Source: a virus. Taken from it: a stretch of DNA of 64,000 nt. Position numbers and translations under genes: made by a program. The notes under the pieces are model-generated. The model saw nothing but the letters and a program-made list of their open reading frames with translations. It did not search any database and was not told the origin of the DNA. Position 1 is the first letter of the stretch. Each line of letters begins with the position of its first letter. The DNA is taken from the IMG/VR virus record IMGVR_UViG_3300017957_001843, positions 11,244 through 75,243 of that record, one strand, 5' to 3'. Positions 368-19,813 of this stretch are shown here, piece after piece.

Positions 368-1201
368 ATGTATGTATATATTGATTTCGGAGATATGGTT
401 ATACCTGTTAATTTGTGTGACACTCCTTATAAAAAACATCTAATAGATAATTTAAATAGCATTGAAGATTGGAGGGCAAAAAGTTTATCTCGTCCTACAG
501 TAAAGGAATATAATGACAAAGTAGTAAACGACAACTGGTCCATTTTACACGAGTATTATTATAAACTTTGCCAAATACTACAAACACCGCCAAAGTATAA
601 TTTGCCTAACAAATTTGATAATACAAATTATTATCTTAATATACTACATAGATACTTTACAACTGCACGTACACATAAAACGTGGGACAATAAACATTTC
701 GATATGAATGAAGAAATATACGATTTAATAAATGGCTTGAATGATTCGGTGCATATAATTGAAACGTATACCAGCAATTCGATTATAGAAGCATACAAAA
801 GTAAACCAGTCCGTTGGTTAGAATTAATCGGAACACCTGAAAACAACGATAATTTGTTAAAAGTAGACGACTATCCTGAATATACGTCTCAAAATTATAA
901 TGTTTATGCAATAAAACAAATAACTGGTAAAGACTTTATTACTTCGTTTTTTGATAACGATACAGCAAATGCTTGGGATATACAAAATTTTCATATTACA
1001 TATATAGGATTTTGTATAGATGTATTTGGAGACTTTAAAAGAATATGGAGTGACGAAAGATTTATTAAATGGCTAGAACAATCTAATTACAACGGCAAAG
1101 TAGGTTATTTTCCTGTCGGAAACATAAAGGGCAAACACCTAAGATATTTACAGAAAAATTTCAAAAAAATTAATACAAAAACTTTATCAGTTTATCTTTA
1201 A
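368..1201 (+). CDS. Hypothetical protein (277 aa)
   Basis: Long ORF with RBS-like AAGGT and upstream TAAATA; no recognised motif; converges on and overlaps the next gene by 32 nt. Confidence 0.7.
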   Translation: MYVYIDFGDMVIPVNLCDTPYKKHLIDNLNSIEDWRAKSLSRPTVKEYNDKVVNDNWSILHEYYYKLCQILQTPPKYNLPNKFDNTNYYLNILHRYFTTARTHKTWDNKHFDMNEEIYDLINGLNDSVHIIETYTSNSIIEAYKSKPVRWLELIGTPENNDNLLKVDDYPEYTSQNYNVYAIKQITGKDFITSFFDNDTANAWDIQNFHITYIGFCIDVFGDFKRIWSDERFIKWLEQSNYNGKVGYFPVGNIKGKHLRYLQKNFKKINTKTLSVYL

Positions 1202-2342
1202 TAATATTTTTTGTAGGCTGTTTTAAAAAAAGATCTTGGTTGTGTTTACATTTTTCTAAAATGTGTTTATCTATATCTATGTCTCTTTTTAAATTTTCTA
1301 TAACAATACGCAATTGTTGCTTTGTATCCGTTTGTTCATCATAATTTTCATTAAATAGTTCAGGAAAAGTTTCGTATCCTAAACTTCTCAAATATTCAAG
1401 AGTTCCGCTAGTGCCGTGTAATAAAAATGGATGCCCCATTAATATAGGTTTGTATGTTTTTTCAGTAATAAATTTTATTTTGTTACCAGTGTATGTTTCA
1501 CTTACTAAACTATATTTTGTTTTTAAATACAAATCTTTATCTGAATGTTGATCGTTATTCGGATCGTCGAGAGGTAATAAAAGTTTTTTTGGTACAACTT
1601 TTTTGACTAATTTATACTCAGACTGATCGTAATTATACCAATAATCAAAATCTTCTTTAGATAGTATATTTGATTCGTGCCAAAGGTTACTTACTAAATT
1701 ATTATCTAATAATTTATGTTTATGAATATAATATATAAGAGCTTGTTTGTTTGGCCTCATTCTTTTATTGAAATTTAAAAAATTTTTATTTTTTACTGCT
1801 TTTTGGTGTTCACTAATAATTTGATCATAATTATTTCCGCTTATTTTTAAATGTCTAAACAAATGCATTATTTCAAAAATGTCAATTCCTAAAACATTAA
1901 TCTTACTCCAGTAATCATCATTATATTTTTTATGATTATTAGCAGCATCAAGATCTCCGCAAATATAGTAAACTTTTTCAGGAGGAATATCTTTTTCTAG
2001 TAAAAAATCTTTTAACTTATTCCATCTATATTTCCAAAAATAAAATGGTGTTGCTTCGGTTGCTTGATATAATAACAAAAAGATATCGTTATTATCTTTA
2101 ATCTTAGACCATATTTCTTCAGGTAATCTATATAAATCAGAATATTCTGTTGGAAACATTAAATTAAATTTTATAAAACTTTTTGACGAATACGTTGTAG
2201 TATACTTATAGCTTATATTAACTGATTTTAACAACCATTCGAAACTCCAACAATCACTAGGATTGCTAGGAGTAAATGTTGTTTCCAAATCATTATATTT
2301 AGAAAAATCATAATCATTATCTAGATATAAAAAATTCAACAA
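1170..2342 (-). CDS. Putative glycosyltransferase with GT10 (fucosyltransferase)-like C-terminal motif
   Basis: KYSLVSETY...FITEKTYKPILMGHPFLLHG resembles the GT10 'F.L.FEN...Y.TEK...A...G.VP' signature; last gene of the operon. Confidence 0.5.
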   Translation of the reverse strand: MLNFLYLDNDYDFSKYNDLETTFTPSNPSDCWSFEWLLKSVNISYKYTTTYSSKSFIKFNLMFPTEYSDLYRLPEEIWSKIKDNNDIFLLLYQATEATPFYFWKYRWNKLKDFLLEKDIPPEKVYYICGDLDAANNHKKYNDDYWSKINVLGIDIFEIMHLFRHLKISGNNYDQIISEHQKAVKNKNFLNFNKRMRPNKQALIYYIHKHKLLDNNLVSNLWHESNILSKEDFDYWYNYDQSEYKLVKKVVPKKLLLPLDDPNNDQHSDKDLYLKTKYSLVSETYTGNKIKFITEKTYKPILMGHPFLLHGTSGTLEYLRSLGYETFPELFNENYDEQTDTKQQLRIVIENLKRDIDIDKHILEKCKHNQDLFLKQPTKNIIKDKLIKFLY

Positions 2343-2350
2343 TATCTTAC

Positions 2351-3139
2351 CTACCTTACTATTTCTTTTGTAATTCTGTTTGCAAACTCAGTATGTCTTT
2401 CTTCCGGAGGATGTCCAAAGCCACAATGATCATTTTGTTGCATTTCAATATAACCGTTATATAAAAATTTATCTTTATGTTTTTGTTTTATGTAATAATA
2501 CAAATCTTTTACTATATAATGTATATTATTGTCATCAAAATCATTTTGTGGATCACAAATTGGACGCATAAACTGTACATACACATTATCATTTAAGTTT
2601 AGTATATTTTCAACTGTTTTTAAATAATTTACAATAAAATTATTATACGACCATAAATATTCCAAATTCCATTTTACTACTTCTTTTGGTACTTTACCTA
2701 AATAATTTAAATTTGTTAATGCTGTTGTATAAGTATCATTGCTCGGCCATTTAAGTATACGAGTATATTGTGTAAGGCCTAATAATATTAAATCACCTTT
2801 TCGAAAATCTTTTTGGAAAAATTTAAACATTTCTAAAAAATGTTCGTCTATTCCTGTGCCGCCTTTAGCTAAATTTAAAAAGTCTAAATCTAAATTTTTT
2901 GCTAGTTTAGCTGCCCAAGAAGAATTTAAATTTTTATGCTTCTGATCTTTTATTAGTTCTTGATATGTTATATTGTCGTCATTACGCAAATTATAAAAAC
3001 CACTGAGCCCATTTTTTATTTTTAACTCTTTACATTTTTCGTAATTCAAATTTAAAATTTTATGATCGTTTAATTCATCACCGGCAGTCCAACTACATCC
3101 AAAAGCAACAATACGATTATAATTTTCAAGATTTATCAT
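2351..3139 (-). CDS. SGNH/GDSL-fold hydrolase or acyltransferase-like protein
   Basis: Block I-like AFGCSWTAG, block II-like NLAKGG, C-terminal GHP...H. Start placed at ATG 3139 (MINLENY), which overlaps the upstream gene by 14 nt, rather than the track start at 3178. Confidence 0.65.
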   Translation of the reverse strand: MINLENYNRIVAFGCSWTAGDELNDHKILNLNYEKCKELKIKNGLSGFYNLRNDDNITYQELIKDQKHKNLNSSWAAKLAKNLDLDFLNLAKGGTGIDEHFLEMFKFFQKDFRKGDLILLGLTQYTRILKWPSNDTYTTALTNLNYLGKVPKEVVKWNLEYLWSYNNFIVNYLKTVENILNLNDNVYVQFMRPICDPQNDFDDNNIHYIVKDLYYYIKQKHKDKFLYNGYIEMQQNDHCGFGHPPEERHTEFANRITKEIVR

Positions 3140-4349
3140 TTCTCGAGTATATCCTATCAATTTCGCTATTACTGCCACAAGTCATTGCACAATAAGATAA
3201 CTTTCCTTGAGAATATTTTTCTTTTGTCCAAGTTTCTGTATATACCTTATCTAAATAACCATTTTTAATTATTTCGTTTATATTAGTCTTTTTAAGATCA
3301 AACTTGTCAATACCAAACTTACGTATATGTACACGTAATTGGGTATCTTCATATAAATCAATAGAGCTATCTACTCTTGTACCTACATAACAACAAGGAA
3401 ATACAATACCATTGCAACTTACATATATTTCACTTCTTTGATCTTTCAAGCAACTTTTACAATTTATTTCCATATCTTGGTACTGAAGAAGATATGTATT
3501 CCAGTGTGGTAATTCTTCCTCAACAAAAGTATCAACTCTATGCTCAACTTTAGGATGGTAACCTTTTTTAATATCTTTCAAATAACCTAAATCTTTTTTT
3601 GGTTCAACATCTCGGTTAATTTTTTGAAAATCAGTCCTGTTTAAAAAATCTAAATTTGTTGGAGGGTCAATTATATATTCTAAATTTCCGTCTCTATCAT
3701 AGACACCTTTTGATTTTAATTCCCCATTTTTGAGTGTATCGAATCCTAATGCTCTTTTAATTTCAATATCTCTAAAGCCTAATAGTTTACTATATTCTTT
3801 TGCTTCTTCAATTTGATGTTCATTATAACCGAACACAAGAAATTCCCACCGTGCTCTTGCCCCCGTTGACAAATATGCTTTTACATTTTCCATTAGTTTA
3901 GACCACTTTACATTTCGTCTATATAAATGATTAGTATCTTCTAGTCCATCAATACTAAATGTAACCCGATGATCAGTGTTTTTAGAAACTAGTTTTTCTC
4001 CAAAACTTTTCCAAAAGTTAGCATCTCTCATTCCTCCATTAGTATGATATACTATTGTACAGCGCGGAGCAGTCTCTTGAATATATTCTGTGATTTCTAT
4101 AATATCTTTAGCCATCATTGGATCACCGTGAGTACCACAAAATAGTATTCTAAGCATATTTTTCATAAATTCGGGTGGGAACCAAGTTTTAAATTGATCA
4201 ATTGAAATCGATTCTAATTTCAAATCTGGTCTTGTCCTAGCAGTAGAATCTACAAACCTAGGACACATAGGACAAGCAGCATTACAATAGTTGCTAAGTT
4301 CTATATGCATATGTGTTACTGTAGATTTACTCCACTCAAAATTTTTCAT
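3126..4349 (-). CDS. Radical SAM protein with C-terminal SPASM/twitch-like domain
   Basis: CNAACPMC motif, GTHGDP, TNGG, FSIDG; C-terminal CKSC...FPCCY...CAMTC. Confidence 0.9.
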   Translation of the reverse strand: MKNFEWSKSTVTHMHIELSNYCNAACPMCPRFVDSTARTRPDLKLESISIDQFKTWFPPEFMKNMLRILFCGTHGDPMMAKDIIEITEYIQETAPRCTIVYHTNGGMRDANFWKSFGEKLVSKNTDHRVTFSIDGLEDTNHLYRRNVKWSKLMENVKAYLSTGARARWEFLVFGYNEHQIEEAKEYSKLLGFRDIEIKRALGFDTLKNGELKSKGVYDRDGNLEYIIDPPTNLDFLNRTDFQKINRDVEPKKDLGYLKDIKKGYHPKVEHRVDTFVEEELPHWNTYLLQYQDMEINCKSCLKDQRSEIYVSCNGIVFPCCYVGTRVDSSIDLYEDTQLRVHIRKFGIDKFDLKKTNINEIIKNGYLDKVYTETWTKEKYSQGKLSYCAMTCGSNSEIDRIYSRNDKS

Positions 4350-5524
4350 ATTTTGTATCCATTCTTTTTCATAAGGGTATAAAACTCTGGAAAGGTTTTA
4401 CTAAATGACTGTCCTCTATATTCGTCTTGCATTTTTGTTACTTCTAAAAATCTATCCCAATGTTCTTCTTTATATGGTTCAGAATTCATAAAATTTATAA
4501 TACTGTTTACCCAATACTTTTCATTGATAGTTTCAAGTTTAGTTTGGACTGCCTTTTTAATTTCAGGCGGTAAATTTTTAATACAATAATGATGCGGTCC
4601 AAAAACTAAATTTAAATATATATTTCTAGTATGTGGTAAAAATTCATTGTACATTTCATCTATATAATAAACGTTTAATGTGCTAATCGTATTACAAATA
4701 CTTACATTAAATTTTGGCATCTCTTTAGAAATACTAATTAATTTCAGTAAGTTAGATTTTACTGTATCCCAATCTGCAGGATATCTAACATAATTTAGCT
4801 TATCTTTTACTCCGTCAATACTAAAATCAATATCTATACCTTTAAAATGTTTTAAGATATTATATTTTTCATCGTCCCAAATAGTTCCATTTGTATTGTA
4901 GTGTAATGTAATGTTTTTTGCTATGTCTTTTTCTATTGCATACTCCAACATTTCCCATTGTTTTTTAACAAGGAAAGGTTCACCACCATAAAAATCAATA
5001 TGAAGAACGTGTTCTAAATTATTTTCAAATTCTTTCCAAAACTTACTATCATCATCAAATGCGTGATTAAATCTTTTTAACCATTCTTTATATTCTGGTT
5101 GACTACCTTTAAAGAATTTTAAATCGAACCATTCTTTGTTCCAGAAACTACTATTAAAAGGTCCACAAGTACGACACTTAATATTGCAAGTAGTACCCAT
5201 ATTAATATCTAATAACTGAAAAGTACCATCTATTTTATTTGCAGTATGACGTTCATTGTCTCTAAGTCTTTTACTTTTTTTGCCTGCTTCTTCTTCTGAC
5301 CAACAGTGTTTGCAAGCAGGATGTTTTTTACCTTTATTAAAGGCTTTTATAATTTTTTTTCTAGTTTTTGAATTAGCAATTTCAGTAAAAGTATTATCTT
5401 TTACATTAAGCGGATTGTCATTATCGTCAAAATAATTTTCAGACATCATACAACAGGCTTTACACGACCCATCTGTGTTAATTCTTAAACCTTTTTTTAA
5501 ATTTACGCACTCTAACTGATTCAT
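4346..5524 (-). CDS. Radical SAM protein with N-terminal twitch/SPASM-like domain
   Basis: N-terminal C...GSCKACC...CKHCW; CNIKCRTC; GGEP, TNG, SIDG. Confidence 0.9.
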   Translation of the reverse strand: MNQLECVNLKKGLRINTDGSCKACCMMSENYFDDNDNPLNVKDNTFTEIANSKTRKKIIKAFNKGKKHPACKHCWSEEEAGKKSKRLRDNERHTANKIDGTFQLLDINMGTTCNIKCRTCGPFNSSFWNKEWFDLKFFKGSQPEYKEWLKRFNHAFDDDSKFWKEFENNLEHVLHIDFYGGEPFLVKKQWEMLEYAIEKDIAKNITLHYNTNGTIWDDEKYNILKHFKGIDIDFSIDGVKDKLNYVRYPADWDTVKSNLLKLISISKEMPKFNVSICNTISTLNVYYIDEMYNEFLPHTRNIYLNLVFGPHHYCIKNLPPEIKKAVQTKLETINEKYWVNSIINFMNSEPYKEEHWDRFLEVTKMQDEYRGQSFSKTFPEFYTLMKKNGYKI

Positions 5525-6705
5525 AAGTATTTTCTTATCTCCGGAAATATGTCAGTTAAAGACTCGTTTCTACGATCATCTAACCATTTTGTTCTTTCAA
5601 CAAATTTGTTCCATAAATCCGGAGAACCCTTTTCTTTTAAATTATTTAATAAAGCTTCAAATTTTTCTGGATATTTTTCATACCATTTACTATTTAAAAT
5701 TTTCTTAATTGCTTGTTTTTTTAATTTTTGTGGCAAAACTTTAGGCTGCAAATATTCCGGATATACTAATAATTGAGGGTAAACATTTGATGTCATTACC
5801 CAAGGTTCGATGTCAATTTCATCAAAAAATTCTGTAATATAAAATGCATTATAAATCATCCAAGTAGAGTTTACAACAACTTCTTTATTACTGCCAAAAT
5901 GTTCTACTATTTTATTTAAATTATTTTTTACTTTAACATCGTTGTAACCAGATCTGATGTATTCTCCCAAAGACCCTAAACCATCTAGACTAACGCTATA
6001 TGTTACTCTAGAAAAGTTTTTCCACATATCAATTATATTATATTTTCCATATTTTATAATGCTGCCATTACTTTGGTAATATAATTCAGGATGTAAATCA
6101 TTTTTTATACACCAATCTAAAAATTCATAGTGTTCTTTTTGCACTAGCGGTTCTCCGCCAGCAAAATACACATACTTTATGTTTTTTAAATATTCATAAT
6201 TATCATCGCAATATTTTACAATATCTGGAATACTAGTTAATGTATCGAGAGGTGGATTAATTGTATCTTCATACCATTTAGTACTTGCTCCAGCACCACA
6301 CATTCTACATTTATAATTGCACACGTTACTAAATCTAACATCAAAATACAATATATCTACATCATAATATCCGTCAGATTGTGTATTGCTAATTATTTTT
6401 TGTTCTAGTTCAGCAGTAAGATACTTTGTATTGCTATGCTTCCTTGCACTATGATTTCCATATTTTTCTAAAATATAGCATTTTTCGCAATTTTTTATTT
6501 TTTTATCTGCAAGCATATCTTTTCTAATACGCTTAAAATCTTTATTGTTTAATGCTTCATTTATACTTGTATCTTTTGCATTAACAAAATTATCTTCTTT
6601 AGAAAACTTTTTAGCCATACAGCAAGGTATAACAGTTCCTTCTGTTTCTACGTGTAAATGCATCCAAGGTAATACACAAAAATATGGTTTATCTTTTAAA
6701 CTCAT
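5521..6705 (-). CDS. Radical SAM protein with N-terminal twitch/SPASM-like domain
   Basis: FCVLPW...GTVIPCC...CEKCY; CNYKCRMC; GGEP, SNG, SLDG. Confidence 0.9.
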   Translation of the reverse strand: MSLKDKPYFCVLPWMHLHVETEGTVIPCCMAKKFSKEDNFVNAKDTSINEALNNKDFKRIRKDMLADKKIKNCEKCYILEKYGNHSARKHSNTKYLTAELEQKIISNTQSDGYYDVDILYFDVRFSNVCNYKCRMCGAGASTKWYEDTINPPLDTLTSIPDIVKYCDDNYEYLKNIKYVYFAGGEPLVQKEHYEFLDWCIKNDLHPELYYQSNGSIIKYGKYNIIDMWKNFSRVTYSVSLDGLGSLGEYIRSGYNDVKVKNNLNKIVEHFGSNKEVVVNSTWMIYNAFYITEFFDEIDIEPWVMTSNVYPQLLVYPEYLQPKVLPQKLKKQAIKKILNSKWYEKYPEKFEALLNNLKEKGSPDLWNKFVERTKWLDDRRNESLTDIFPEIRKYL

Positions 6706-8098
6706 TGTATACCTCTTTGCAAGTCTCTAAAAAATTCTTATATAAAGGAAACGTATTTGTAAAGTTTAAATTACTGCGTTTATCATAATCTGTAAAAAAT
6801 ACATAAAAATCTCGTCTGCCTCGACTAATTAAATCTGAAGTAATCTTTTGAGATCCGTCATAAAAATAATCTCTTACTCTTTTAAATTTTTCGTATTCGT
6901 GCTGGCTAAATTTAAAGGTATCGCCACCATCACTTCTTAAATTTTTATTGATAAACTGTAAATCATCGTCTAAATATTTTCCAAATTCATTAGGTAAGAT
7001 ATTAATCATCCAATGTGGCGGCTCTTTAAGGTAAGGAGTATCAAAACCAAGCATTTGTCTATGATCGTTTTCTGTATTGTATTTTTGTCTTAGCTCTAGT
7101 ATTTTTTCTAATAAAGGTCTAAAATATGCAACAGCAAGAACATTATATGTAATCATAATACTTACAGGAGAATTTGTAGTTGTAATAAAGGTATCTAAAT
7201 TTTTCTCCCAAAGTTTGCAATCAAGACCTCGACGCATATATTCTGCTTGTTCGCCCCAACTATCTATACTTGTATATAATCTAAATGATTTAATTTTATT
7301 TTCATCGAGGAGTTTTTTTACACGTTCGCTTAATCTTTTAACTTTGTTATGAGTTACTCCTAAATTACTATTCATATTAATTTCTAATTCAGGTGCAGGT
7401 TCTCTATCTAACAAGTCTAACATTTTAAAAATATTAGAACTCATTAAAGGTTCTCCGCCTGTTAGTCTCAAAACTCTAAGATCATTTTTTAAATCAGGCC
7501 ACCAATCCCAAAATGCAGTAACATATGGATTTTCTTCCTCATTTTGATAAAAATGTCCTTCTTTATCTAAAAATTCTATACCATACTGGTTATATGTTAA
7601 ATCATAGTTACCGTGTTTTTTTATTTCGTCTACCCATAAACTACTAGCCTGAGGGCAACAATAACCGCATTTAAAATTACAACCGTTACCAAAACTTAAT
7701 TCTAAAAATCTAGGATTAATATTTTTATCCCACGGCATTGTTTTTATTAAATCAATATCGTCCTTAACCCAAGAACTGGCACTATGAAACATTCTATCAC
7801 TAAAATGTTCTCCTGGTAAATCTTCAATATTCCAACAGTAATAACATTCTTCAGGCCGGCCGCCTTCTAACATTGTCTTACGCTGCATTTTCTTATAGTT
7901 TGTATTGTGCAATGCACTAGGATCATTTAAAACTTCTTCAAGGGGAATATGATGAGGGCGCGGATGATAACAACTATGATTATCACCTGTTTGCAAGTAT
8001 AATGTTTCGTTTAACCATTTCATTGCACAGAAGCCAGGGCCTACTTCATTTAGCTTGTCCCTTGTGCGCTTTACGTGATCCATATATCCGTCACTCAT
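6689..8098 (-). CDS. Radical SAM protein, N-terminal twitch-like domain (CYH variant)
   Basis: FCAMKW...HSCYHP...ECYYCW; CNFKCGYC; GGEP; SIDSWGEQAEY. Confidence 0.9.
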   Translation of the reverse strand: MSDGYMDHVKRTRDKLNEVGPGFCAMKWLNETLYLQTGDNHSCYHPRPHHIPLEEVLNDPSALHNTNYKKMQRKTMLEGGRPEECYYCWNIEDLPGEHFSDRMFHSASSWVKDDIDLIKTMPWDKNINPRFLELSFGNGCNFKCGYCCPQASSLWVDEIKKHGNYDLTYNQYGIEFLDKEGHFYQNEEENPYVTAFWDWWPDLKNDLRVLRLTGGEPLMSSNIFKMLDLLDREPAPELEINMNSNLGVTHNKVKRLSERVKKLLDENKIKSFRLYTSIDSWGEQAEYMRRGLDCKLWEKNLDTFITTTNSPVSIMITYNVLAVAYFRPLLEKILELRQKYNTENDHRQMLGFDTPYLKEPPHWMINILPNEFGKYLDDDLQFINKNLRSDGGDTFKFSQHEYEKFKRVRDYFYDGSQKITSDLISRGRRDFYVFFTDYDKRSNLNFTNTFPLYKNFLETCKEVYNEFKR

Positions 8099-11885: not shown

Positions 11886-12729
11886 AGCCTACCTCGTCAA
11901 TTATTCTATTAAGACTAAATTTGTTCATTACGTGTATACTTTGTCCTTTAGTACGCAAAGGAGTATATTCTCCAACATATTTGTCTTTTTCTACTAAAAA
12001 AATAAATTCAGTGTCATTTAGTTTCCATAAAATGTCTCTGTCTGTTGTATATAAATGTCTACCAGGAAGTTCAGAAATAAAACTACCTTTAGAAAATCCG
12101 TTCATTATATGTCCAGCAATGCTAAAAGCAAAATCATTTCTAAATAATGTGCTTGCTAGTTGATACACTGTACAATAATGATTCCAATTTTCCTGTATGT
12201 GTTTTATTAAATCAAAATATATTTTGTTCAATTTAGTTTTTCTAAAAAATACAACTGTTGCCCAATAAAAATCTATACTATAATCGCTTATATGATCAAA
12301 CTCTCTTTCATCTCTTACTTTTGCTATGTCATCGGATTTTCTAAACATTTGTAAATCATTTGGTGAATCAAAACAATTTGCAAGTAGACTATTAGAAATA
12401 ATGTAGTCTGTGTCTAACAACAAAGTTTCTTCATATGGAGATAAGTCATATGCATCTACTCTATAGTTATTTTTAAAATTTAATTTTTTGCTAGTAAGAG
12501 TGCCATCATAATAATCACGTTTGTTAGGTCCATCGTCTCGATAGTCTATTTTTATAATATTATCAAAAGTATCTTCAGGAAACTGTTCTTCAAGATACAA
12601 GACACTGTCTGTAATAATACTTACAGGTATATTAAGATATTTTTTAATTCTATTTGCAAGGAAAACTGCCTGTTTTACATAATCAATAGTATCATTATTT
12701 CTTGCAATTAACAATGCCCCTTTAGTCAA
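11878..12729 (-). CDS. Putative GT-A glycosyltransferase; paralogue of 11049..11885
   Basis: Both start MTKG...A.NN...DYV.QA; SPYEETLLLDTD (DxD); RNDFAFSIA; HVMNK. Confidence 0.7.
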   Translation of the reverse strand: MTKGALLIARNNDTIDYVKQAVFLANRIKKYLNIPVSIITDSVLYLEEQFPEDTFDNIIKIDYRDDGPNKRDYYDGTLTSKKLNFKNNYRVDAYDLSPYEETLLLDTDYIISNSLLANCFDSPNDLQMFRKSDDIAKVRDEREFDHISDYSIDFYWATVVFFRKTKLNKIYFDLIKHIQENWNHYCTVYQLASTLFRNDFAFSIAGHIMNGFSKGSFISELPGRHLYTTDRDILWKLNDTEFIFLVEKDKYVGEYTPLRTKGQSIHVMNKFSLNRIIDEVGYD

Positions 12730-13078: not shown

Positions 13079-13103
13079 ATTGACACTCCTATAAGATTAT
13101 AGT

Positions 13104-13132
13104 AGTATATAACAAAAAAATGCTTTTGTCAA
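13104..13132 (-). promoter_or_regulatory. Sigma70-type promoter of the glycosyltransferase/radical SAM operon
   Basis: TTGACA (13132-13127), 17-nt spacer, TATACT (13109-13104). Confidence 0.8.
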
Positions 13133-13143
13133 GAAAGATCTGA

Positions 13144-13863
13144 CTACAGATTTCTTTGGTGATCAGTAAACTTGTTACCTTGTGTGTCCTCGCCCCGCCA
13201 ATACCTTTTTCCTACACCGTGAGGTTTTTGCGTGTCAGGACCGCCACGTTCTTTACCTGCGTTTATCATTTCTTGTTGCTCGTTTTTTACTTCTTCAATT
13301 GCATTATAATTTTCAGCAAGATCAATTTCAAAATTGTCTACAAAATATCTAGGTATTGGTAACACTGCACTGATTATATCACCTTTCTTGACATTTACTT
13401 TTACATTAGGAGTTAATATTTTTAAATTAAATGTAAAATCTCTGCGTAGATTGTCTGTTTCTACAACAGCAGTCATATTAGAAAGATTAGGTGTAAAATA
13501 ATTAGGCGGATTAATCACCATTAAATTTATGCCTTTGGGTGTTTTGAAAGTGAATCTATTTTGTACCGTAATCAACCCACTACCAAAATGCGCACTAATA
13601 TGTTGTTTATCTGTACCTTCACTATCTATAATTACATCATTAGGAGCATCGCCGCCATTCCAAATCGCACTAAAATTAGTTGTGCTTTTTATAGCAAATC
13701 CATACTGATTGCCTATTACTACTGGTAAACAATGTACTACGTGTTTATTGATCCAATTTCTAGTTTTTTTGCCCTTGAGAGGTTCTACAATTTCTAAGTA
13801 ATCGTTTTTATGTAAATCATTTTCTGGTACTATCAGTATTTTATTTTGAGGTACATTAATCAT
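13144..13863 (-). CDS. DUF6065-like protein
   Basis: HCLPVVIGNQYGF...FGSGLIT...FKTPKGINLMVINPPN...VVETD...FTFN matches my recollection of the DUF6065 pattern (CLP..IAN..G, PPN, ETD, FTMN). Confidence 0.65.
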   Translation of the reverse strand: MINVPQNKILIVPENDLHKNDYLEIVEPLKGKKTRNWINKHVVHCLPVVIGNQYGFAIKSTTNFSAIWNGGDAPNDVIIDSEGTDKQHISAHFGSGLITVQNRFTFKTPKGINLMVINPPNYFTPNLSNMTAVVETDNLRRDFTFNLKILTPNVKVNVKKGDIISAVLPIPRYFVDNFEIDLAENYNAIEEVKNEQQEMINAGKERGGPDTQKPHGVGKRYWRGEDTQGNKFTDHQRNL

Positions 13864-14383
13864 CTTTTGTTAAAAATAAAACTATTGTATATCTTTCTCC
13901 ACTAGTAACTTCACTGACTCCGTGTAGATACTCTTTTGTTCCTTTGAACTGTACAAGAGTGCCCGGAACAGTCTTAGGTTCAATGTTTTGATTTGGAAAA
14001 AATATTTGTCCGCCTTTGTAATCGCTATTTAGATAGATCAAAACACTATAATGTCTATTTGGATACGGATGCGGAGATCCGTCTAGATTTTCACAATCTG
14101 CGTGAGGTGGATCTAGTTTATCTCCTTTGCGCCACCTAACAATTTGACAAGTTTCTACAAAACTTTTTTGTTTTTCATTTGCTTCTATCAATTTTACAAT
14201 ACGATCTTGGATATCTTTTATTTGTGCTAAAACATTTGGATTTGTTATTAAGTTGTAGTGTATAAATTTTTCACTCCAATGATCATTTGTAACAACCCAA
14301 TCGGAAGTTGTTTTTGCATAGTTACAAATATCAGTGGTAGTTTGTTCGTCTAAAAAATTATTGTCAATGTAAATATCCTGCAT
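13856..14383 (-). CDS. 2OG-Fe(II) oxygenase, prolyl 4-hydroxylase-like
   Basis: HxD (PPHADC), SVLIYLNSDYKGGQIFF, distal His and 2OG-binding Arg in LHGVSEVTSGERYT. Confidence 0.88.
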   Translation of the reverse strand: MQDIYIDNNFLDEQTTTDICNYAKTTSDWVVTNDHWSEKFIHYNLITNPNVLAQIKDIQDRIVKLIEANEKQKSFVETCQIVRWRKGDKLDPPHADCENLDGSPHPYPNRHYSVLIYLNSDYKGGQIFFPNQNIEPKTVPGTLVQFKGTKEYLHGVSEVTSGERYTIVLFLTKDD

Positions 14384-14413
14384 ACATTATATATTAGTAT
14401 ATGCAGGATATTT
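14371..14413 (-). promoter_or_regulatory. 14-bp perfect inverted repeat that would sequester the oxygenase start codon
   Basis: AAATATCCTGCATA (14371-14384) and TATGCAGGATATTT (14400-14413) with a 15-nt loop; the ATG at 14383-14381 lies in one arm. Confidence 0.7.
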
Positions 14414-14425
14414 TATATAATTTGA

Positions 14426-17400
14426 CTAAAACGAAGGTAAACCTCCCCCGGTAATAGTGAAGGTTGTGCTTGCACTTCCGGCTCCTGTTTGTGCAACACC
14501 TACTGAATAACTTCCTACTGGGAATGTTGCGTCTATAAAATCGTTACCACTAGAATTAGTAGTTCTAGATCCACTTGTATAGAAAGTACCATTTCTGTAT
14601 ACAGCATAAGAATAACTTGTATTAGGTATGCCTCCTGTTACACTAGCAATAGCCGTAGTACCAACCACGGATACAGATATCCCAATCTGATAGGACGGTG
14701 GAGGTGGCGGCGGTGGTGGTGGCGGAGGTGGTGGTGGCGGAGGTGGCGGAGGTGGCGGAGGTGGTGGTGGTGGAACCGAAGCCGTCACCGTTATACTGTC
14801 CGATGCTAATGTTGTTTTTGATCCAAACCAATCGTTCACCAAATATATTGTAAAATTACCAGTAGAACTAAATGTTTGTGGTAAACTACCTGGATTTTGT
14901 GTTGGTGCAAACGCTCCTATATAACTACCGTCTCTATAATATGCAAGATATACATCTGTTCCGTTTGACCAACTCCAAGATGCAGTAAATGTAGTACTAT
15001 TAACAACTCCACTAGAAGGCGAAATAGCATAACTTCCACTAGCTGGTGGTGGTGGTGGCGGTGGGGGTGGCGGTGGGGGTGGCGGTGGCGGAGGTGCAGC
15101 CACCACTGAAAGATTTGCAGTTACTGACACACTTTGGCTTTGGCCGTTTTCGTCTGTATATGTCACAAATGCGCCGCCGACATATGTTCCTGTTTGAGCT
15201 AATATGACACTAAGAGAATGAGCACTTGTAGTTGTGCTTGATGATGTAACTGATCCACTAGGATTTCTAATATATGTGTAACTACTATTTCCAGTAAATC
15301 CTAGATTAGGCTGGTAATAGAACGTACCTGTGTCGCCAACATAATGAGGTGCAGATGATGTTACAGTTACACTCGGTGTTGGTGCAGCTACAGGTGCATT
15401 TGCAATAGGAATAGTATCTGATGCAGTTGCATAACTTGTAGTTCCACTAGAGTTTGTGTAAGCTGTTGCAATACTTGCTCTCCAATTGCCTGTGCCGCTT
15501 AATACTTCGTGAAGTAGTGTTCCACTAGCAGCAGTAGAATTTGTAACTGAAGTGCTCGAGCTCGGTGGATAAATTGCTGCATAAGAGCTGTTTCCTCCTC
15601 CTCTAGAAAAATTAGCAGCTATCGTGTCGCCTATTATACCCGATGGTTCATCAAATGCTATAGAGGGCGTCGGAACAACCACTGCTGCACTTGCTGTCAT
15701 TGTTGCATCTGCACCTGTTGCTAAATTAGGATCATTTCTGTTAAAAACAGCTATAGATGCTGTATATGTTCCTACGACACTAGCAGTACCAGAATCAGAT
15801 CCACTATTTTGTGTGCTATTATAGATCTGCTGGCCATTAGGGTCAGTAACAGATACGATTGTACCAAATATTGTTTCGTTATTATTTGCATCCCAACTCA
15901 TAGTGTAATTTGTAGAATTAACTGTACCTGTAGTTGGAGACCAACTTATGCTAGGAGTGTTTGGGCTAGGATTTGAAGGTGTTGTACTTGTATCTCCTAC
16001 TGTTGTTGATGTTGTAGCTACTGCACTTCCACCGCTGGTTGCACTTACTACTACCTGGAATGATTCTTGCCCTTCTGTAGTTTGATCAGCTGTAGGAGAT
16101 ATTGAAAATTGTCCTGTATTATTATTAATAGTAAATGAACCACTTGTAGAACTAAAATCTGCACTTGAAGTTGTGAGGTTATTTATACGCCAATATAGTG
16201 AAGTTCCGTTTGGTATTCCTGATGTTGTAACTGTATATGTTCCAGAACTACCTTCACTAATTACATTACCCGCAGGTCCTGTAATCGAATAACTAGGTGC
16301 TGCTGTTGATACTGATGCTGTCCTAGTGTTGCCTGTAGAACTAAAGTTTAATGTTGCAGCACAATTAGGATAAACAGAAGTTGCTATAGCTACTAAACTT
16401 GTATTACCTAGTGAATTTGTATTTCCGCTACCTACAATTTGTGAAAAACCAGAAGTATTTGTAATAGTAAATGTATCAAACGGTGTAGCATTAGTCACAT
16501 ATATTCCTACTTCGCCGTTTATTCCGGGATCTATGGCTACCATTTGCACATTTTCATTCACTGCTGCTGTAACCGTAAAACTTATATTTGCTCCTGTATC
16601 AAGGAAATTTGCAGGAGATAGGTTATAATTTCTTGTACCCGGTGTATTAATAACAGCAGATAGAGACCAATTACCGTTGGCATCAAAATTGTCTGCGAGG
16701 GTGTCGCTTCCTGATATAGTAAATGAACTGTTTGGTCTGCCACCTGTTGCGCTAAGTGTAACTGTATCGCCTGTAACAGGATTAGTAGGAGATACAGATA
16801 ACGAAACTGTATACGTATCAGTAACTGTATAATTTAACGTAACACTACCACTATTGTCATCTGTAAATGTAATACTGTAGTTGCCTGCGGGAGAACTTTG
16901 TACTTGTATACCTGCTGCAACTCCTGACGAGTTAAAATTACCTAAATTAAAACCATTGGCATAAAAATTTCCATTAGGAAATCCACCGCTCAACGAAACT
17001 TCTCTATTTGCTCCAGTAGCACCTGTTGTAATTGTAAAATTATTTCTATCCAATTGAAGATTAGATGTTACAGTCTGTGAAGCACTAGCTGTTGAAGGAT
17101 TTCCTGTACTAAAAGTTGCTACCGCATTATATGTTCCAGGAGAAATGTGGTTACGTGACCAAGTTCCTAAACCACTTGAATTTAATGATATAGTATTAGA
17201 CTGATTAATCAGCAAAGGACTTGTGTGAGAAGTGTTTATAGTAACTGATTGGAAGGGATCTCCAGAAACAGAAATGTTAAATGGCGTATTAGCTCTAATA
17301 GTAGAAGGCATAGTAATACTATTATTAGGATTGTCATTGTCTAATAAATCTAAAGAGGCACTAGCACTGTCTCCGCTGTCTCTGTGCGTCCAAGTAAATG

Positions 17401-19813
17401 TGATAGTTTTGTTGCCGTCATTTATGCTATCATCTTCAGTCTGCTTAACTATGCCAACATACCCACTATTTACTCCTCCGCTTTGTGTTTCGCTCCCTGT
17501 CAAACTTGCATATGTAGATGTAAAATCATTAGAATTAACCCCACTAATACTCCAATCAAAAATATCACCAGAACTATAACCAGTAGTAGCGATCTGTGCA
17601 ATAAATACTCCGCCTTCTGTGATGCTAGTTATAGATTGTGAATTCTGGGTAAATGAAGGAGTGATACTTTTTGCAACAGGCGTTGTTGAAGTGTCTTGTA
17701 TTGTTGCAAATTTAGCATTTGAAACATTATTAGGTCCACTTACTCGTGTCCCGAAAATTTCTGATCCTTCAGTTGTGGAATCTGCAACAGTTGTTCTAGT
17801 AAATGTGTATGTACCGTCGCCTGTGTTTGGTAGATTAGTTATTGTAACTGCTGCTGAGCCGCTCATTACACCGCCAACAAAGTCTGCTGCAACAGCATTT
17901 GTTCCACTAGTTGCATTTACATTAGACCAACTTACGTTTCCTGTTGATGATGACCAATTACTTACTGTACCTGTATATGTGTATGTGTTATATGTAGTTT
18001 CGTTACCAATAGTCGGTGATGTGTAACCAGTATCAACAGATAAATCATTGTTTACTGTGGGTATGTTATTGTCAACGCCTGCGCCCGTCCAATAAATTTT
18101 ATAACTTTGACCATCACCTTCAGCTTTTAGTGCAGTAAAATCAAAAGTTCTATTTACAGCACGAAAATCAAGTACACTTTGAGGGATAACACTAATAGGA
18201 ACTGTCAATGATGCAGGACTTGCACCTAAACTATACGTTTTAGTTGCAGATCCGGATGTTGAACTTATACCGTCTACTGAAACATCCCAAGCCGTTGGTC
18301 TGCCAGTTTCTTGTACTGTAACATTTCCGCTTGCATTGCCTGTGCTTGTAAGAGTAATATTAGTAGTAGAGCTTGTTCCTATTTGCACATCGCCTATATC
18401 CCACGCTGTTGATTGTGTTAAGTATGAACTAGGTGAAACATCAAATGTAAACACTTGCGGAGGAGGTGGTGGCGGTGGTGGCGGTGGTGGCGGAGGTGGC
18501 GCAACACTAGTATCATTTATTGTCATACTAATGCTATCTTTTCCATTATCTAAACTTAGAGTAAGTGTTTCAGACCCTTCTGTAATTTGATCTGCTACAG
18601 GACTTATTACAACTGAATTAGTTGTACCTACAACAAAAGATCCTTGTAACGGAATACCTAAATCAGCCTGTGAAGTTCCTGTAATAGTATAAGGAATTAC
18701 TGTACCATTAGATACGTTACTAGTAGACAATGTTATGCTTGCGCTACTGCCTTCGTTTACATTACTTGCAGACCTACTCAAATTGTAAGTAGCAACAGGC
18801 GGCTGCGATGCACTTAGCTCAACAATGTTACTTCCTACAGGTACATCTGCTGATCCATATACCACTGTGTTATAAGTCTGCCCGTTAATATCTACAGATC
18901 CGTTTGGTATAAGTAATTGTGCGCTACTGGTCCAATTACCAAATACAGGCTCATCTATACTGAATCCGCCTGGACTAGGATCAGCAAAATTTACTTTAAA
19001 TTGTATAGTCCTTGAATCTACATCTAGTGCATACAATTCATATTGACTTAAATTATAAGTGCCTCCTGCATTTTTACTGTAGCAAAGTTGGTAGCTACTA
19101 CTAAGGTTAGTTGCACCAACATTTTGTCCATTACCTACGCCGGCATTGCTAAAAGTTCTATCACCTTTAAAACTTACAACTCCCATACTTTGCATTTCTG
19201 TTTGCCAGTCCACAGTTTTTTGTTGTGATCCTGTATAACTTACACTTGCACTAAATCTTACCTCACCCCCTGCGTTAAAAAAATGACGGCGAGTTTCGTC
19301 TGTAGGGAAAGTAATCGTAAAAATATGGTTAATAAAACTAGTCCATTGACCATTTACAGAATTTAAATATGTGCTGGTAATTTGATTGCCACTGGAATTA
19401 TTCAAATCAGCAACATTTGCTTGTCCTACTGTATCTATCTCAAATCTATCATTTTCGATTTGAGTCATTAAATTTTCTAAATTTTGTATATAAGTAAGTT
19501 CTACAAGCTCAGCGTCATTGGGATTGTTGACAAAGTCTCCTACAACAAAATCATTTACTGAAACATTTCCAGCACCTAATTGGTGTGCTCTACATCTAAT
19601 TAAATCTATGTATAAGTCTTCGTATTGTTGTGCAGTGATTTTATCACTAGAAGGAGGCGCAACAGATCTTGTTCCGTCTACATTTTGAGATGCATTAAGT
19701 GTTTCACCATACCCAAAGTCGGGTGCTGCTGTTAAAGATGTCCCTAGTACTTTTTCTAGCCTATCCTGTAGGCTGTTAAAGCGAGACGCTAAAATCGTTG
19801 TAGTTGTTGCCAT
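14426..19813 (-). CDS. Long tail fibre/adhesin-like virion protein with Ig/Calx-beta-like repeats and three polyproline tracts
   Basis: N-terminal ~300 aa shared with 19870..24825 (GYG.TL, RRHFFN.GG..RFS); S/T/G/N-rich beta repeats of the type EG....T..T......DF.....G; pure poly-Pro linkers. Confidence 0.8.
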   Translation of the reverse strand: MATTTTILASRFNSLQDRLEKVLGTSLTAAPDFGYGETLNASQNVDGTRSVAPPSSDKITAQQYEDLYIDLIRCRAHQLGAGNVSVNDFVVGDFVNNPNDAELVELTYIQNLENLMTQIENDRFEIDTVGQANVADLNNSSGNQITSTYLNSVNGQWTSFINHIFTITFPTDETRRHFFNAGGEVRFSASVSYTGSQQKTVDWQTEMQSMGVVSFKGDRTFSNAGVGNGQNVGATNLSSSYQLCYSKNAGGTYNLSQYELYALDVDSRTIQFKVNFADPSPGGFSIDEPVFGNWTSSAQLLIPNGSVDINGQTYNTVVYGSADVPVGSNIVELSASQPPVATYNLSRSASNVNEGSSASITLSTSNVSNGTVIPYTITGTSQADLGIPLQGSFVVGTTNSVVISPVADQITEGSETLTLSLDNGKDSISMTINDTSVAPPPPPPPPPPPPPPQVFTFDVSPSSYLTQSTAWDIGDVQIGTSSTTNITLTSTGNASGNVTVQETGRPTAWDVSVDGISSTSGSATKTYSLGASPASLTVPISVIPQSVLDFRAVNRTFDFTALKAEGDGQSYKIYWTGAGVDNNIPTVNNDLSVDTGYTSPTIGNETTYNTYTYTGTVSNWSSSTGNVSWSNVNATSGTNAVAADFVGGVMSGSAAVTITNLPNTGDGTYTFTRTTVADSTTEGSEIFGTRVSGPNNVSNAKFATIQDTSTTPVAKSITPSFTQNSQSITSITEGGVFIAQIATTGYSSGDIFDWSISGVNSNDFTSTYASLTGSETQSGGVNSGYVGIVKQTEDDSINDGNKTITFTWTHRDSGDSASASLDLLDNDNPNNSITMPSTIRANTPFNISVSGDPFQSVTINTSHTSPLLINQSNTISLNSSGLGTWSRNHISPGTYNAVATFSTGNPSTASASQTVTSNLQLDRNNFTITTGATGANREVSLSGGFPNGNFYANGFNLGNFNSSGVAAGIQVQSSPAGNYSITFTDDNSGSVTLNYTVTDTYTVSLSVSPTNPVTGDTVTLSATGGRPNSSFTISGSDTLADNFDANGNWSLSAVINTPGTRNYNLSPANFLDTGANISFTVTAAVNENVQMVAIDPGINGEVGIYVTNATPFDTFTITNTSGFSQIVGSGNTNSLGNTSLVAIATSVYPNCAATLNFSSTGNTRTASVSTAAPSYSITGPAGNVISEGSSGTYTVTTSGIPNGTSLYWRINNLTTSSADFSSTSGSFTINNNTGQFSISPTADQTTEGQESFQVVVSATSGGSAVATTSTTVGDTSTTPSNPSPNTPSISWSPTTGTVNSTNYTMSWDANNNETIFGTIVSVTDPNGQQIYNSTQNSGSDSGTASVVGTYTASIAVFNRNDPNLATGADATMTASAAVVVPTPSIAFDEPSGIIGDTIAANFSRGGGNSSYAAIYPPSSSTSVTNSTAASGTLLHEVLSGTGNWRASIATAYTNSSGTTSYATASDTIPIANAPVAAPTPSVTVTSSAPHYVGDTGTFYYQPNLGFTGNSSYTYIRNPSGSVTSSSTTTSAHSLSVILAQTGTYVGGAFVTYTDENGQSQSVSVTANLSVVAAPPPPPPPPPPPPPPPPPASGSYAISPSSGVVNSTTFTASWSWSNGTDVYLAYYRDGSYIGAFAPTQNPGSLPQTFSSTGNFTIYLVNDWFGSKTTLASDSITVTASVPPPPPPPPPPPPPPPPPPPPPPPPPPSYQIGISVSVVGTTAIASVTGGIPNTSYSYAVYRNGTFYTSGSRTTNSSGNDFIDATFPVGSYSVGVAQTGAGSASTTFTITGGGLPSF
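14696..14773 (-). repeat. Polyproline-coding tract (~26 Pro)
   Basis: Run of CCN codons (mixed CCA/CCG/CCT) on the - strand. Confidence 0.95.
15044..15094 (-). repeat. Polyproline-coding tract (~17 Pro)
   Basis: Run of CCN codons using all four Pro codons. Confidence 0.95.
18458..18499 (-). repeat. Polyproline-coding tract (~14 Pro)
   Basis: Run of mixed CCN codons. Confidence 0.95.

What the first reader, a model, noticed from the sequence alone, without database searches (positions are those of the whole stretch)
1170..19813. Candidate phage-encoded virion glycosylation system: polyproline fibre, prolyl hydroxylase, glycosyltransferases and five radical SAM enzymes
Seen: a 1795-aa fibre with pure Pro runs of about 14, 17 and 26 residues ends 42 nt before a P4H-like 2OG-Fe(II) oxygenase on the same strand. 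A DUF6065-like gene and a coupled operon of 4 putative glycosyltransferases, 5 radical SAM proteins and an SGNH protein follow. Known: prolyl 4-hydroxylases act on polyproline II substrates; hydroxyproline is the O-glycosylation acceptor in plant extensins and Dictyostelium Skp1; chlorovirus PBCV-1 encodes its own P4H and glycosylates its capsid; twitch-type radical SAM enzymes such as BtrN oxidise sugars. Inference: the phage hydroxylates and glycosylates its own fibres and tailors the glycan by radical chemistry and acylation, giving an extensin-like coat. Alternatives are modification of host surface polysaccharide or of phage DNA.
Basis: partly seen in the sequence, partly recalled or inferred. 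Interest (0 to 1): 0.9.

Follow-up and report, generated by a model that had tools for sequence, protein, structure and literature searches.

The report
Phage prolyl hydroxylase beside polyproline fibre
An uncultured jumbo phage carries a prolyl-hydroxylase gene right after a tail-fibre gene with long pure-proline linkers, a pairing that recurs in many unrelated phages and so looks like enzyme and substrate, whereas the neighbouring sugar-transferase and radical-SAM genes are a separate module that most related phages keep without either.

Summary
The sequence features are mostly real. There is a 1795-aa fibre-like protein with P14, P17 and P26 runs. 42 nt downstream lies a 175-aa oxygenase whose model best matches the chlorovirus PBCV-1 prolyl hydroxylase. 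A DUF6065 gene follows, then a tightly coupled operon with two GT8-like genes, a GT2-like gene and five radical SAM genes. The SGNH call and the fourth glycosyltransferase are unconfirmed.

Comparative genomics splits the region into two modules.

1. Oxygenase + DUF6065 is a conserved pair in 37 viral lineages. In 16 of them, poly-Pro runs of 9 to 36 residues lie within 5 kb upstream on the same strand, usually in the adjacent gene. These runs sit in at least eight BLAST-unrelated proteins and occur nowhere else in those loci but once, further upstream. This supports hydroxylation of the proline linkers.

2. The GT–radical SAM island follows fibre genes in 79 of 80 sampled relatives, and in cultured Ralstonia phage RsoM2USA, with no oxygenase, DUF6065 or poly-Pro. 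It therefore does not depend on hydroxyproline.

The single "extensin-like" pathway is only partly supported. Other first-stage notes on this same genome proposed the same adjacency. I found no description in the searched literature.

The parts
14426..19813 (-). 1795-aa fibre-like structural protein. Its N-terminal ~300 aa are paralogous to the neighbouring 1651-aa protein. Three poly-Pro linkers (P14, P17, P26) separate Ig-like domains.
   Evidence: No Pfam or PHROG family except a spurious Pro-rich hit. 'Fibre' is inferred from its position among tail-fibre and baseplate genes.
18458..18499 (-). poly-Pro run P14 (residues 439-452)
   Evidence: mixed Pro codons
15044..15094 (-). poly-Pro run P17 (residues 1574-1590)
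14696..14773 (-). poly-Pro run P26 (residues 1681-1706)
14371..14413 (-). 14-bp hairpin that encloses the oxygenase start codon
   Evidence: Kept in relatives L011 and L015, where both arms differ from the window's yet still pair.
13856..14383 (-). 175-aa prolyl-hydroxylase-like 2OG-Fe(II) oxygenase (H94, D96, H154, R164)
   Evidence: AF2 model pLDDT 97. Best PDB matches are PBCV-1 vCPH, P3H1, B. anthracis and Chlamydomonas P4H, and PHD2.
13144..13863 (-). DUF6065 protein, the conserved partner of the oxygenase; dUTPase-like beta-barrel fold plus a C-terminal helix
12722..13078 (-). 118-aa ORF of unknown function, first gene of the conserved GT island
   Evidence: present in 72 of 80 relatives
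11878..12729 (-). GT8-like glycosyltransferase b (DxD)
11049..11885 (-). GT8-like glycosyltransferase a (DxD)
10435..11052 (-). 205-aa ORF of unknown function
9518..10438 (-). Highly conserved 306-aa protein, GT2-like by name and motif only (SYDEPNAE, DGD). The family has at least 8000 clusters in metagenomes.
4346..9521 (-). Four tandem N-terminal-twitch radical SAM paralogues (8091-9521, 6689-8098, 5521-6705, 4346-5524)
   Evidence: The array is hypervariable between near-identical phages. Copy number is 0-5 in relatives.
3126..4349 (-). Radical SAM protein without the N-terminal twitch domain, with a Cys-rich C-terminus
2351..3178 (-). 275-aa ORF.
   Evidence: no family match
1170..2342 (-). 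390-aa ORF conserved in relatives; GT10-like lead only

Best explanation
Two separable accessory modules sit side by side at the distal end of the tail-fibre gene cluster of an uncultured Rak2/Atu_ph07-like jumbo myophage.

Module 1 has three parts: the poly-Pro linkers of the last fibre protein, the small prolyl-hydroxylase-like oxygenase, and its constant partner DUF6065. Inferred mechanism: during late gene expression the oxygenase uses Fe(II), 2-oxoglutarate and O2 to hydroxylate prolines in the P14, P17 and P26 linkers. This would stiffen and solubilise these polyproline-II rods between the Ig-like domains of the fibre. DUF6065 (dUTPase fold) would act as an accessory subunit or a second modifying enzyme. 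Its role is unknown.

Module 2 is the operon small ORF-GT8-GT8-x-GT2-like-N-twitch radical SAM array, plus the UDP-sugar dehydrogenase, aminotransferase and further radical SAM genes upstream. It is a conserved glyco-module of this phage group with a fixed GT core and a variable radical SAM tail. It works independently of hydroxyproline. Its target is not shown. Glycosylation of the Ser/Thr-rich fibres is the most likely reading because of its constant position after fibre genes.

Shown: gene content, folds, synteny and co-occurrence. Inferred: every chemical step.
For: Oxygenase identity:
- PF13640 above threshold.
- Nearest PDB sequence is P3H1 at E 1.4e-6.
- HxD...H plus Arg are invariant or nearly so in 60 homologues.
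- The model has pLDDT 97, and every hit in the 50-rank PDB list bar one unnamed 'putative oxygenase' is a prolyl hydroxylase, led by PBCV-1 vCPH at E 6.6e-11.

Coupling to poly-Pro:
- 16 of 37 lineages (80% identity clusters) have runs of 9 to 36 prolines within 5 kb upstream on the same strand. The only run elsewhere in these loci lies further upstream in L224 (Fisher p 4e-5).
- Three more lineages have PPPV, PPPY or PPPF repeats upstream.
- The Pro-rich proteins fall into at least eight BLAST-unrelated families.
- The association is spread over at least five starred clades of the oxygenase tree.
- No Pro runs of 8 or more occur in 1.2 Mb of bacterial loci, nor in 79 related phage loci that lack the oxygenase.
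- A scan starting from poly-Pro independently recovered two further adjacent pairs, L194 and L135.
- The 75-kb contig has a single oxygenase of this family and a single DUF6065, next to its only poly-Pro gene.

Pairing with DUF6065: present in 30 of 32 representative loci.

Independence of module 2. Variable radical SAM copy number.
Against: - No chemistry is shown.
- About half of the oxygenase lineages have no Pro-rich gene in the sequence available, so the enzyme family is not restricted to poly-Pro neighbours.
- Most viral poly-Pro proteins sampled have no such oxygenase nearby: only 2 of 47 loci with P>=12 in a real ORF.
- Related lineages are not fully independent samples.
- For PBCV-1, whose enzyme is the closest structure, a review's reference list cites an unpublished amino-acid analysis that found no hydroxyproline in virions (PMC7019647, ref. 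162).
- The protein is called a fibre from context only.
- A sigma-70-like site (11 of 12 matches) lies in the 65-nt gap before module 2, so the two modules may be transcribed separately.
Confidence: 0.6

Rival explanations
1. The oxygenase makes hydroxyproline in the fibre linkers, the GT8/GT2-like enzymes attach sugars to it, and the radical SAM, aminotransferase and acyl enzymes tailor that glycan. The result is an extensin-like coat.
For: All parts lie on one strand in one cluster. The order fibre-oxygenase-DUF6065-GT block is kept in four lineages down to 54% oxygenase identity, and in the L232 and L229 group at about 42%. An independent lineage (L244 group) has other sugar enzymes after the same trio: two GT7 domains fused to a ConA-like domain, a weak GT2 match, a methyltransferase and an NDP-sugar epimerase. 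GT8 glycogenin-like enzymes cap the Hyp-linked glycan of Skp1 in Toxoplasma (own knowledge).
Against: The GT-radical SAM block is present without oxygenase, DUF6065 or poly-Pro in 79 of 80 sampled relatives and in RsoM2USA. No known Hyp-specific GT family (GT95, GT31, GT60, GT77) is detected. The other poly-Pro lineages show mostly plain structural genes and few GTs nearby.
Confidence: 0.2
2. The oxygenase (with DUF6065) does not touch the fibre. It hydroxylates a host translation factor or ribosomal protein so that the ribosome can read through runs of up to 36 prolines. The genes travel with poly-Pro genes because such genes need them.
For: Bacterial enzymes of this fold hydroxylate EF-Tu; PDB 5v7y is among the top structural matches. 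Long Pro runs stall ribosomes and need EF-P (own knowledge). Two bacterial DUF6065 loci lie next to JmjC/Cupin_8 protein hydroxylases.
Against: The closest structures (vCPH, CrP4H) act on proline-rich or poly-Pro peptides (own knowledge; PDB 3gze title). Direct action on the adjacent product is the simpler reading. No EF-P-related gene was seen in the contig.
Confidence: 0.1
3. The adjacency has no functional meaning. Poly-Pro runs are plain rigid spacers, and the oxygenase-DUF6065 pair is a mobile accessory cassette that lands at the end of fibre modules and acts on something else, such as nucleotides, DNA or a small molecule.
For: DUF6065 has a dUTPase/dCTP-deaminase fold. There are weak Tet/JBP-like similarities: Pfam E 0.008 and PDB E 0.06. 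Half of the lineages lack a Pro-rich neighbour. In bacteria, DUF6065 mostly occurs without such an oxygenase.
Against: This does not explain why every Pro run in these loci lies upstream on the same strand and in unrelated proteins. Nor does it explain why, within one phage group, the cassette and the poly-Pro linkers appear together. Other fibre genes in the window have no Pro runs. DUF6065 shows no dUTPase sequence similarity.
Confidence: 0.1
4. This rival concerns module 2 only. The GT-radical SAM island modifies phage DNA or the host cell envelope rather than virion proteins.
For: Phage GTs are best known for DNA glycosylation and serotype conversion (PMC12619734, discussion). The GT2-like gene is very strongly conserved, about 70% identity over hundreds of contigs, which suits a core function. 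The island carries nucleotide-sugar enzymes.
Against: The island keeps a constant position directly after the fibre genes in 64 of 80 relatives and in RsoM2USA. No flippase, polymerase or DNA-base-modifying enzyme was seen. The variable radical SAM tail resembles surface-glycan diversity islands (inference).
Confidence: 0.25

Closest known systems
PBCV-1 (chlorovirus) prolyl 4-hydroxylase vCPH and the virus's proline-rich repeat proteins (Eriksson et al. 1999, cited in PMC7019647; PDB 5c5t)
   Same: It is a virus-encoded small 2OG prolyl hydroxylase and the best structural match to the window's enzyme. The virus also encodes proline-rich sequences proposed as substrates.
   Different: PBCV-1 is a eukaryotic virus. 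Its enzyme has a membrane anchor, its proposed substrates are PAPK-type repeats rather than pure Pro runs, there is no DUF6065 partner, and no gene adjacency was reported. An analysis of virions found no Hyp (PMC7019647, ref. 162).
Plant extensin/AGP and Dictyostelium/Toxoplasma Skp1 hydroxyproline O-glycosylation
   Different: No Hyp-specific GT family was detected here. The GT block occurs in most relatives without the hydroxylase, so the link between the two steps is not supported.
Mimivirus L230 (lysyl hydroxylase-glycosyltransferase) acting on viral collagen-like proteins (own knowledge)
   Same: A virus encodes both a structural repeat protein and the 2OG hydroxylase, with a GT, that modifies it.
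   Different: Lysine not proline; a fused bifunctional enzyme; collagen GXY repeats; a giant eukaryotic virus.
Mycobacteriophage virion glycosylation (Freeman et al. 2023, cited in PMC12619734)
   Same: Phage-encoded GTs next to structural genes decorate virion proteins. This is the best precedent for module 2.
   Different: There the GTs are of other families, the acceptors are C-terminal Ser/Thr of capsid and tail-tube proteins, and there are no radical SAM genes and no hydroxylase.
NCBIfam NF033640 'twitch domain-containing radical SAM protein'
   Same: Four of the five radical SAM proteins are full-length members.
   Different: The family has no assigned chemistry. Here, and in bacteria, it forms tandem arrays of up to 8 copies.

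Membership tests
Prolyl hydroxylase branch of 2OG-Fe(II) oxygenases (PF13640) | Profile match above the curated threshold | tested here: met
   40.3 bits against a cut-off of 27, E 6.5e-10
Prolyl hydroxylase branch of 2OG-Fe(II) oxygenases (PF13640) | HxD...H iron triad and a basic residue for the 2OG C5 carboxylate | tested here: met
   H94, D96 and H154 are invariant and R164 is nearly invariant in 60 homologues
Prolyl hydroxylase branch of 2OG-Fe(II) oxygenases (PF13640) | Fold closest to solved prolyl hydroxylases rather than to other 2OG oxygenases | tested here: met
   Model pLDDT 97. Every hit in the 50-rank list bar one unnamed 'putative oxygenase' is a prolyl 3- or 4-hydroxylase, led by vCPH 5c5t at E 6.6e-11, TM 0.73.
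Prolyl hydroxylase branch of 2OG-Fe(II) oxygenases (PF13640) | Hydroxylation of peptidyl proline | not testable with these tools
   Needs an enzyme assay or mass spectrometry
DUF6065 (PF19541) | Profile match above threshold | tested here: met
   128 bits against a cut-off of 26.6
Trimeric dUTPase / dCTP deaminase | Shared beta-barrel fold | tested here: met
   VIA-align Z 8-9.9, rmsd about 3 A over 102-123 residues for the 12 best chains: eleven dUTPases and one herpesvirus tegument protein. Z falls to about 3 once the dUTPase and dCTP-deaminase relatives end. Foldseek E 8e-4.
Trimeric dUTPase / dCTP deaminase | Sequence similarity or the conserved dUTPase motifs | tested here: not met
   A profile of 31 DUF6065 sequences finds no dUTPase among PDB sequences even at E 10. 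The invariant residues differ. It is therefore not filed as a dUTPase.
NF033640 N-terminal-twitch radical SAM | Full-length match above the curated cut-off, with a CxxxCxxC motif | tested here: met
   301-338 bits against a cut-off of 170 for four genes. The fifth scores 73 bits over profile positions 108-299 only. The CNxxCxxC motif is present in all five.
Glycosyltransferase family 8 | GT-A N-terminal region with DxD, similar to glycogenin or LgtC | tested here: inconclusive
   A joint profile of both paralogues hits glycogenin-1 and -2 at E 1e-5, but only over the first ~100 positions. The DxD motif is invariant. No Pfam GT8 hit.
Glycosyltransferase family 2 (gene 9518-10438) | Profile or fold match to GT2 | tested here: inconclusive
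   No Pfam or PDB sequence match. Only automatic cluster names and a DGD motif. No structure was predicted.
SGNH hydrolase (gene 2351-3178) | Profile match or the four SGNH blocks | tested here: not met
   No hit in Pfam, NCBIfam, PHROGs or PDB sequences. Only a GCSWTAGDE motif is visible.
Hydroxyproline O-glycosylation system (extensin or Skp1 type) | A GT dedicated to Hyp that co-occurs with the hydroxylase | tested here: not met
   No GT95, GT31, GT60 or GT77 hit. The GT block occurs in 79 of 80 relatives without the hydroxylase.

The most novel reading that the evidence does not exclude
Tailed phages of several kinds make hydroxyproline-rich, possibly glycosylated, polyproline rods in their fibres. 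They would use a dedicated two-protein machine: a minimal prolyl hydroxylase plus a dUTPase-fold partner (DUF6065) that is either a new substrate-holding subunit or a new kind of Hyp-modifying enzyme. This would be the first hydroxyproline-based virion modification in viruses of bacteria.
Probability: 0.2. Interest if true: 0.85.

Novelty: new variant of a known kind. Interest (0 to 1): 0.66.

Why it matters
If the oxygenase hydroxylates the linkers, phages would join plants, algae and chloroviruses in using hydroxyproline to build stiff extracellular rods. The many natural gene pairs found here give ready enzyme-substrate sets for poly-Pro hydroxylation, with runs from P9 to P36.

It would also give DUF6065 a first functional context. 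That family is present in 29 of 301 alphaproteobacterial genomes sampled; one of the 29, G045, is unpublished.

Separately, the fibre-adjacent GT-radical SAM island is very widespread in aquatic jumbo phages: at least 578 IMG/VR loci and at least 8000 protein clusters. It has a cultured representative, RsoM2USA, so the function of N-terminal-twitch radical SAM enzymes and a possible virion glycosylation can be tested at the bench.

Tried and rejected
Genomic context of database homologues therefore came only from the search for related loci and the genome search.
- A three-sequence alignment of the oxygenase returned only the relatives already known. A 60-sequence alignment was too diverse to scan with. 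A 12-sequence alignment worked.
- A single-protein scan with a radical SAM paralogue found nothing in IMG/VR.
- DUF6065 has no match in deposited phage genomes.
- Promoter and terminator scans were at chance level.
- Literature searches for N_Twi_rSAM, NF033640, DUF6065 and PF19541 gave no paper. Searches for phage plus prolyl hydroxylase or polyproline gave nothing on this module.
- The idea that radical SAM neighbours in bacteria would reveal the substrate led nowhere. Contexts are mixed: more radical SAM genes, GT2, PhyH/WelO5 oxygenases, methyltransferases and GDSL.
- Bacterial DUF6065 neighbours are also mixed.
- I considered filing DUF6065 as a dUTPase and rejected it, because only the fold is shared and not the sequence.
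- I considered a Tet/JBP-type DNA oxygenase and rejected it as the main reading. That similarity is far weaker than to prolyl hydroxylases.

Full report
**What the window is.** The window is bases 11244-75243 of a 75-kb IMG/VR viral contig, which CheckV rates at about 20% complete. Its baseplate wedge protein is 32-36% identical to those of jumbo myophages of 345-490 kb: Atu_ph07, Phosso, SCTP-2 and RaK2. PHROG hits show a T4-like baseplate and several tail-fibre genes at 24.8-58 kb. The finding lies at the downstream end of this structural block, all on the minus strand.

**Check of the observation.**
- The 1795-aa ORF and its P14, P17 and P26 runs are real. They are encoded by mixed Pro codons and are the only Pro runs of 8 or more in the window.
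- The first ~300 residues are 31% identical to the start of the neighbouring 1651-aa protein. "Fibre" is a reasonable label, but it rests on context.
- The 42-nt gap, the 2OG oxygenase (PF13640) and DUF6065 (PF19541) are confirmed.
- Twelve genes from 13078 to 2351 overlap one another.
- There are five radical SAM genes. Four are full-length NF033640 "N-terminal twitch" proteins. The fifth has the same core with a Cys-rich C-terminus instead.
- Two GT8-like paralogues are supported by a profile hit to glycogenin and an invariant DxD.
- The GT2-like and GT10-like calls are only leads. The SGNH call has no support from any profile.
- Upstream of the window the island continues with three more radical SAM genes, a class IV aminotransferase, an AspH-like oxygenase, a second copy of the GT2-like domain and a UDP-Glc/GDP-Man dehydrogenase.

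**The oxygenase.**
- Its nearest solved sequences are prolyl 3-hydroxylase 1 (E 1.4e-6) and the Bacillus anthracis P4H.
- A whole-library HMMER search found 2261 relatives, mostly stand-alone proteins of 170-210 aa.
- With 60 of them as alignment, AlphaFold gave a model of pLDDT 97.
- Its best PDB match is the PBCV-1 viral prolyl hydroxylase (E 6.6e-11, TM 0.73). P3H1, the B. anthracis and Chlamydomonas P4Hs and PHD2 follow. All but one of the listed hits are prolyl hydroxylases.
- The iron triad H94/D96/H154 is invariant.

**The co-occurrence test.**
- I fetched viral loci that encode relatives of the oxygenase down to 35% identity. They form 37 lineages at 80% identity.
- In 16 lineages, pure Pro runs of 9 to 36 residues lie within 5 kb upstream on the same strand, usually in the gene directly before the oxygenase.
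- Elsewhere in these loci (downstream, on the other strand, or more than 5 kb upstream) there is one such case, in L224 (Fisher p 4e-5).
- Three further lineages carry PPPV, PPPY or PPPF repeats upstream.
- With the Pro runs masked, the carriers fall into at least eight BLAST-unrelated families. These include the large fibres of the window's lineage, 230-370-aa proteins with small Cys/Tyr-rich domains between P13-P32 linkers, and proteins that end in a Hint-like domain.
- On a maximum-likelihood tree of the oxygenase, the poly-Pro-linked genes occupy at least five well-supported clades, interleaved with unlinked ones.
- Background is low. There are no runs of 8 or more in 1.2 Mb of bacterial loci. 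There are none in 79 related phage loci without the oxygenase.
- A scan that began from the poly-Pro DNA pattern recovered two more adjacent pairs. It also showed that most viral poly-Pro proteins have no such neighbour.
- The link is therefore real but not universal in either direction.

**DUF6065.**
- It follows the oxygenase in 30 of 32 representative loci.
- Its model (pLDDT 84) has a dUTPase-like barrel. VIA-align gives Z 8-9.9 for the twelve best chains, eleven of them dUTPases, and Z drops to about 3 once the dUTPase and dCTP-deaminase relatives end. No sequence similarity to dUTPases is detectable.
- In Alphaproteobacteria it occurs in 29 of 301 genomes sampled (this count includes the unpublished genome G045, which I left out of all further analysis). 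It is normally without the oxygenase there, apart from one locus.
- Its role is unknown.

**The GT-radical SAM island is a separate module.**
- The 306-aa GT2-like protein belongs to a very large family: at least 8000 clusters and at least 578 IMG/VR loci.
- In the 80 best loci, GT8a is present in 77, GT8b in 75, the small ORF in 72 and N-twitch radical SAM genes in 75-76. A fibre homologue lies upstream in 64-65.
- The oxygenase, DUF6065 and poly-Pro occur in only one of the 80, and that locus is a close relative already known.
- The cultured Ralstonia jumbo phage RsoM2USA has the same block directly after its fibre and baseplate genes. It has no oxygenase, no DUF6065 and no Pro run. Its published proteomics does not address glycosylation (PMC8504454).
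- The island therefore does not need hydroxyproline. In the window's sub-lineage, the oxygenase pair was inserted between the last fibre gene and the island, and the linkers appear together with it.
- The radical SAM tail is the variable part. Against a strain that is 98-99% identical through the GT8 genes, identity falls to 91%, 79%, 59% and 41% along the array. Copy number ranges from 0 to 5 among 36 relatives.
- The same family forms arrays of up to eight genes in bacteria and is fused to long TPR arrays in one Elusimicrobia genome. Its bacterial neighbours give no clear substrate.

**One point for the integrated reading.** In the L244 lineage (oxygenase about 40% identical) the trio is followed by a different set of sugar genes: two GT7 domains fused to a ConA-like domain, a weak GT2 match, a methyltransferase and an NDP-sugar epimerase. 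A fibre with an endosialidase-chaperone domain lies upstream. Other poly-Pro lineages show mostly ordinary structural genes.

**Verdict.**
- Module 1 (poly-Pro linkers, prolyl hydroxylase, DUF6065) is the real and, as far as I could find, undescribed finding. Hydroxylation of the linkers is the best reading, with about 0.6 confidence.
- Module 2 is a widespread fibre-adjacent glyco-module whose target is unknown.
- The single extensin-like pathway is possible in this phage, but comparison with relatives does not require it (about 0.2).
- Other first-stage notes on this same genome had flagged the adjacency, the radical SAM array and the start-codon hairpin. I tested the first two. For the hairpin, I found it kept in two relatives whose arm sequences both differ from the window's yet still pair.

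Noticed in passing
window 14371-14413; L011 and L015 at the oxygenase start: A 14-bp hairpin encloses the oxygenase start codon. It is kept in two relatives at about 70% identity, where both arms differ from the window's yet still pair (CCTGCAT/ATGCAGG against CTGTCAT/ATGACAG). It is absent in distant lineages. This suggests translational control of the oxygenase on read-through fibre mRNA.
   Followed up: partly
L063, L072, L054, L017, L027 (bacterial loci): N-terminal-twitch radical SAM genes (NF033640) form tandem arrays of 5-8 copies in Bacteriovoracaceae and other MAGs. In one Elusimicrobia MAG they are fused to N-terminal arrays of about 14 TPR repeats, which hints at protein substrates.
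   Followed up: partly
L261:985-2019, L236:2154-3236, L243:3298-5355: Proteins with PPPV/PPPY repeats or poly-Pro runs upstream of the oxygenase end in a Hint/intein-like motif (C-x-V-x-G-[ST]-P-[IV]-L-M-A-D-G ... T-H-N). This suggests autoprocessing at the end of the Pro-rich rod.
   Followed up: no
L135:4519-5926: In a viral contig of 48% GC, a P4H-like gene lies directly before a 172-aa protein with an N-terminal membrane helix followed by P26. This is a membrane-anchored version of the pairing.
   Followed up: no
L320 (alphaproteobacterial genome G159, 1.9 Mb): This is the only one of 29 bacterial DUF6065 loci where a close relative of the phage oxygenase (E 1.9e-54) lies next to DUF6065. 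It may be a prophage or a transfer of the pair.
   Followed up: no
window 19870-24825, about 22300-23100: The paralogous 1651-aa fibre has a long Gly-rich low-complexity region (GGGGxG-type) where the 1795-aa fibre has none. It has no Pro runs.
   Followed up: no
window 31041-46853: A single 5270-aa ORF lies between the fibre genes and the baseplate wedge gene.
   Followed up: no
whole window: TATAAATA, the T4 late-promoter core, occurs only twice against 14 expected from shuffles. One copy lies just upstream of the gene that starts at 350 (-).
   Followed up: no
window 13104-13132: A sigma-70-like site with 11 of 12 matches lies in the 65-nt gap between DUF6065 and the first gene of the GT island. 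The two modules may be transcribed separately. Promoter-like sites as a whole are at chance level.
   Followed up: no
homologues P0273-P0290 of gene 9518-10438; L008:8360-10048: The GT2-like domain also occurs as C-terminal part of proteins of about 530-560 aa, including a second copy 11 kb upstream in the same contig. The added N-terminal part has no family match.
   Followed up: no
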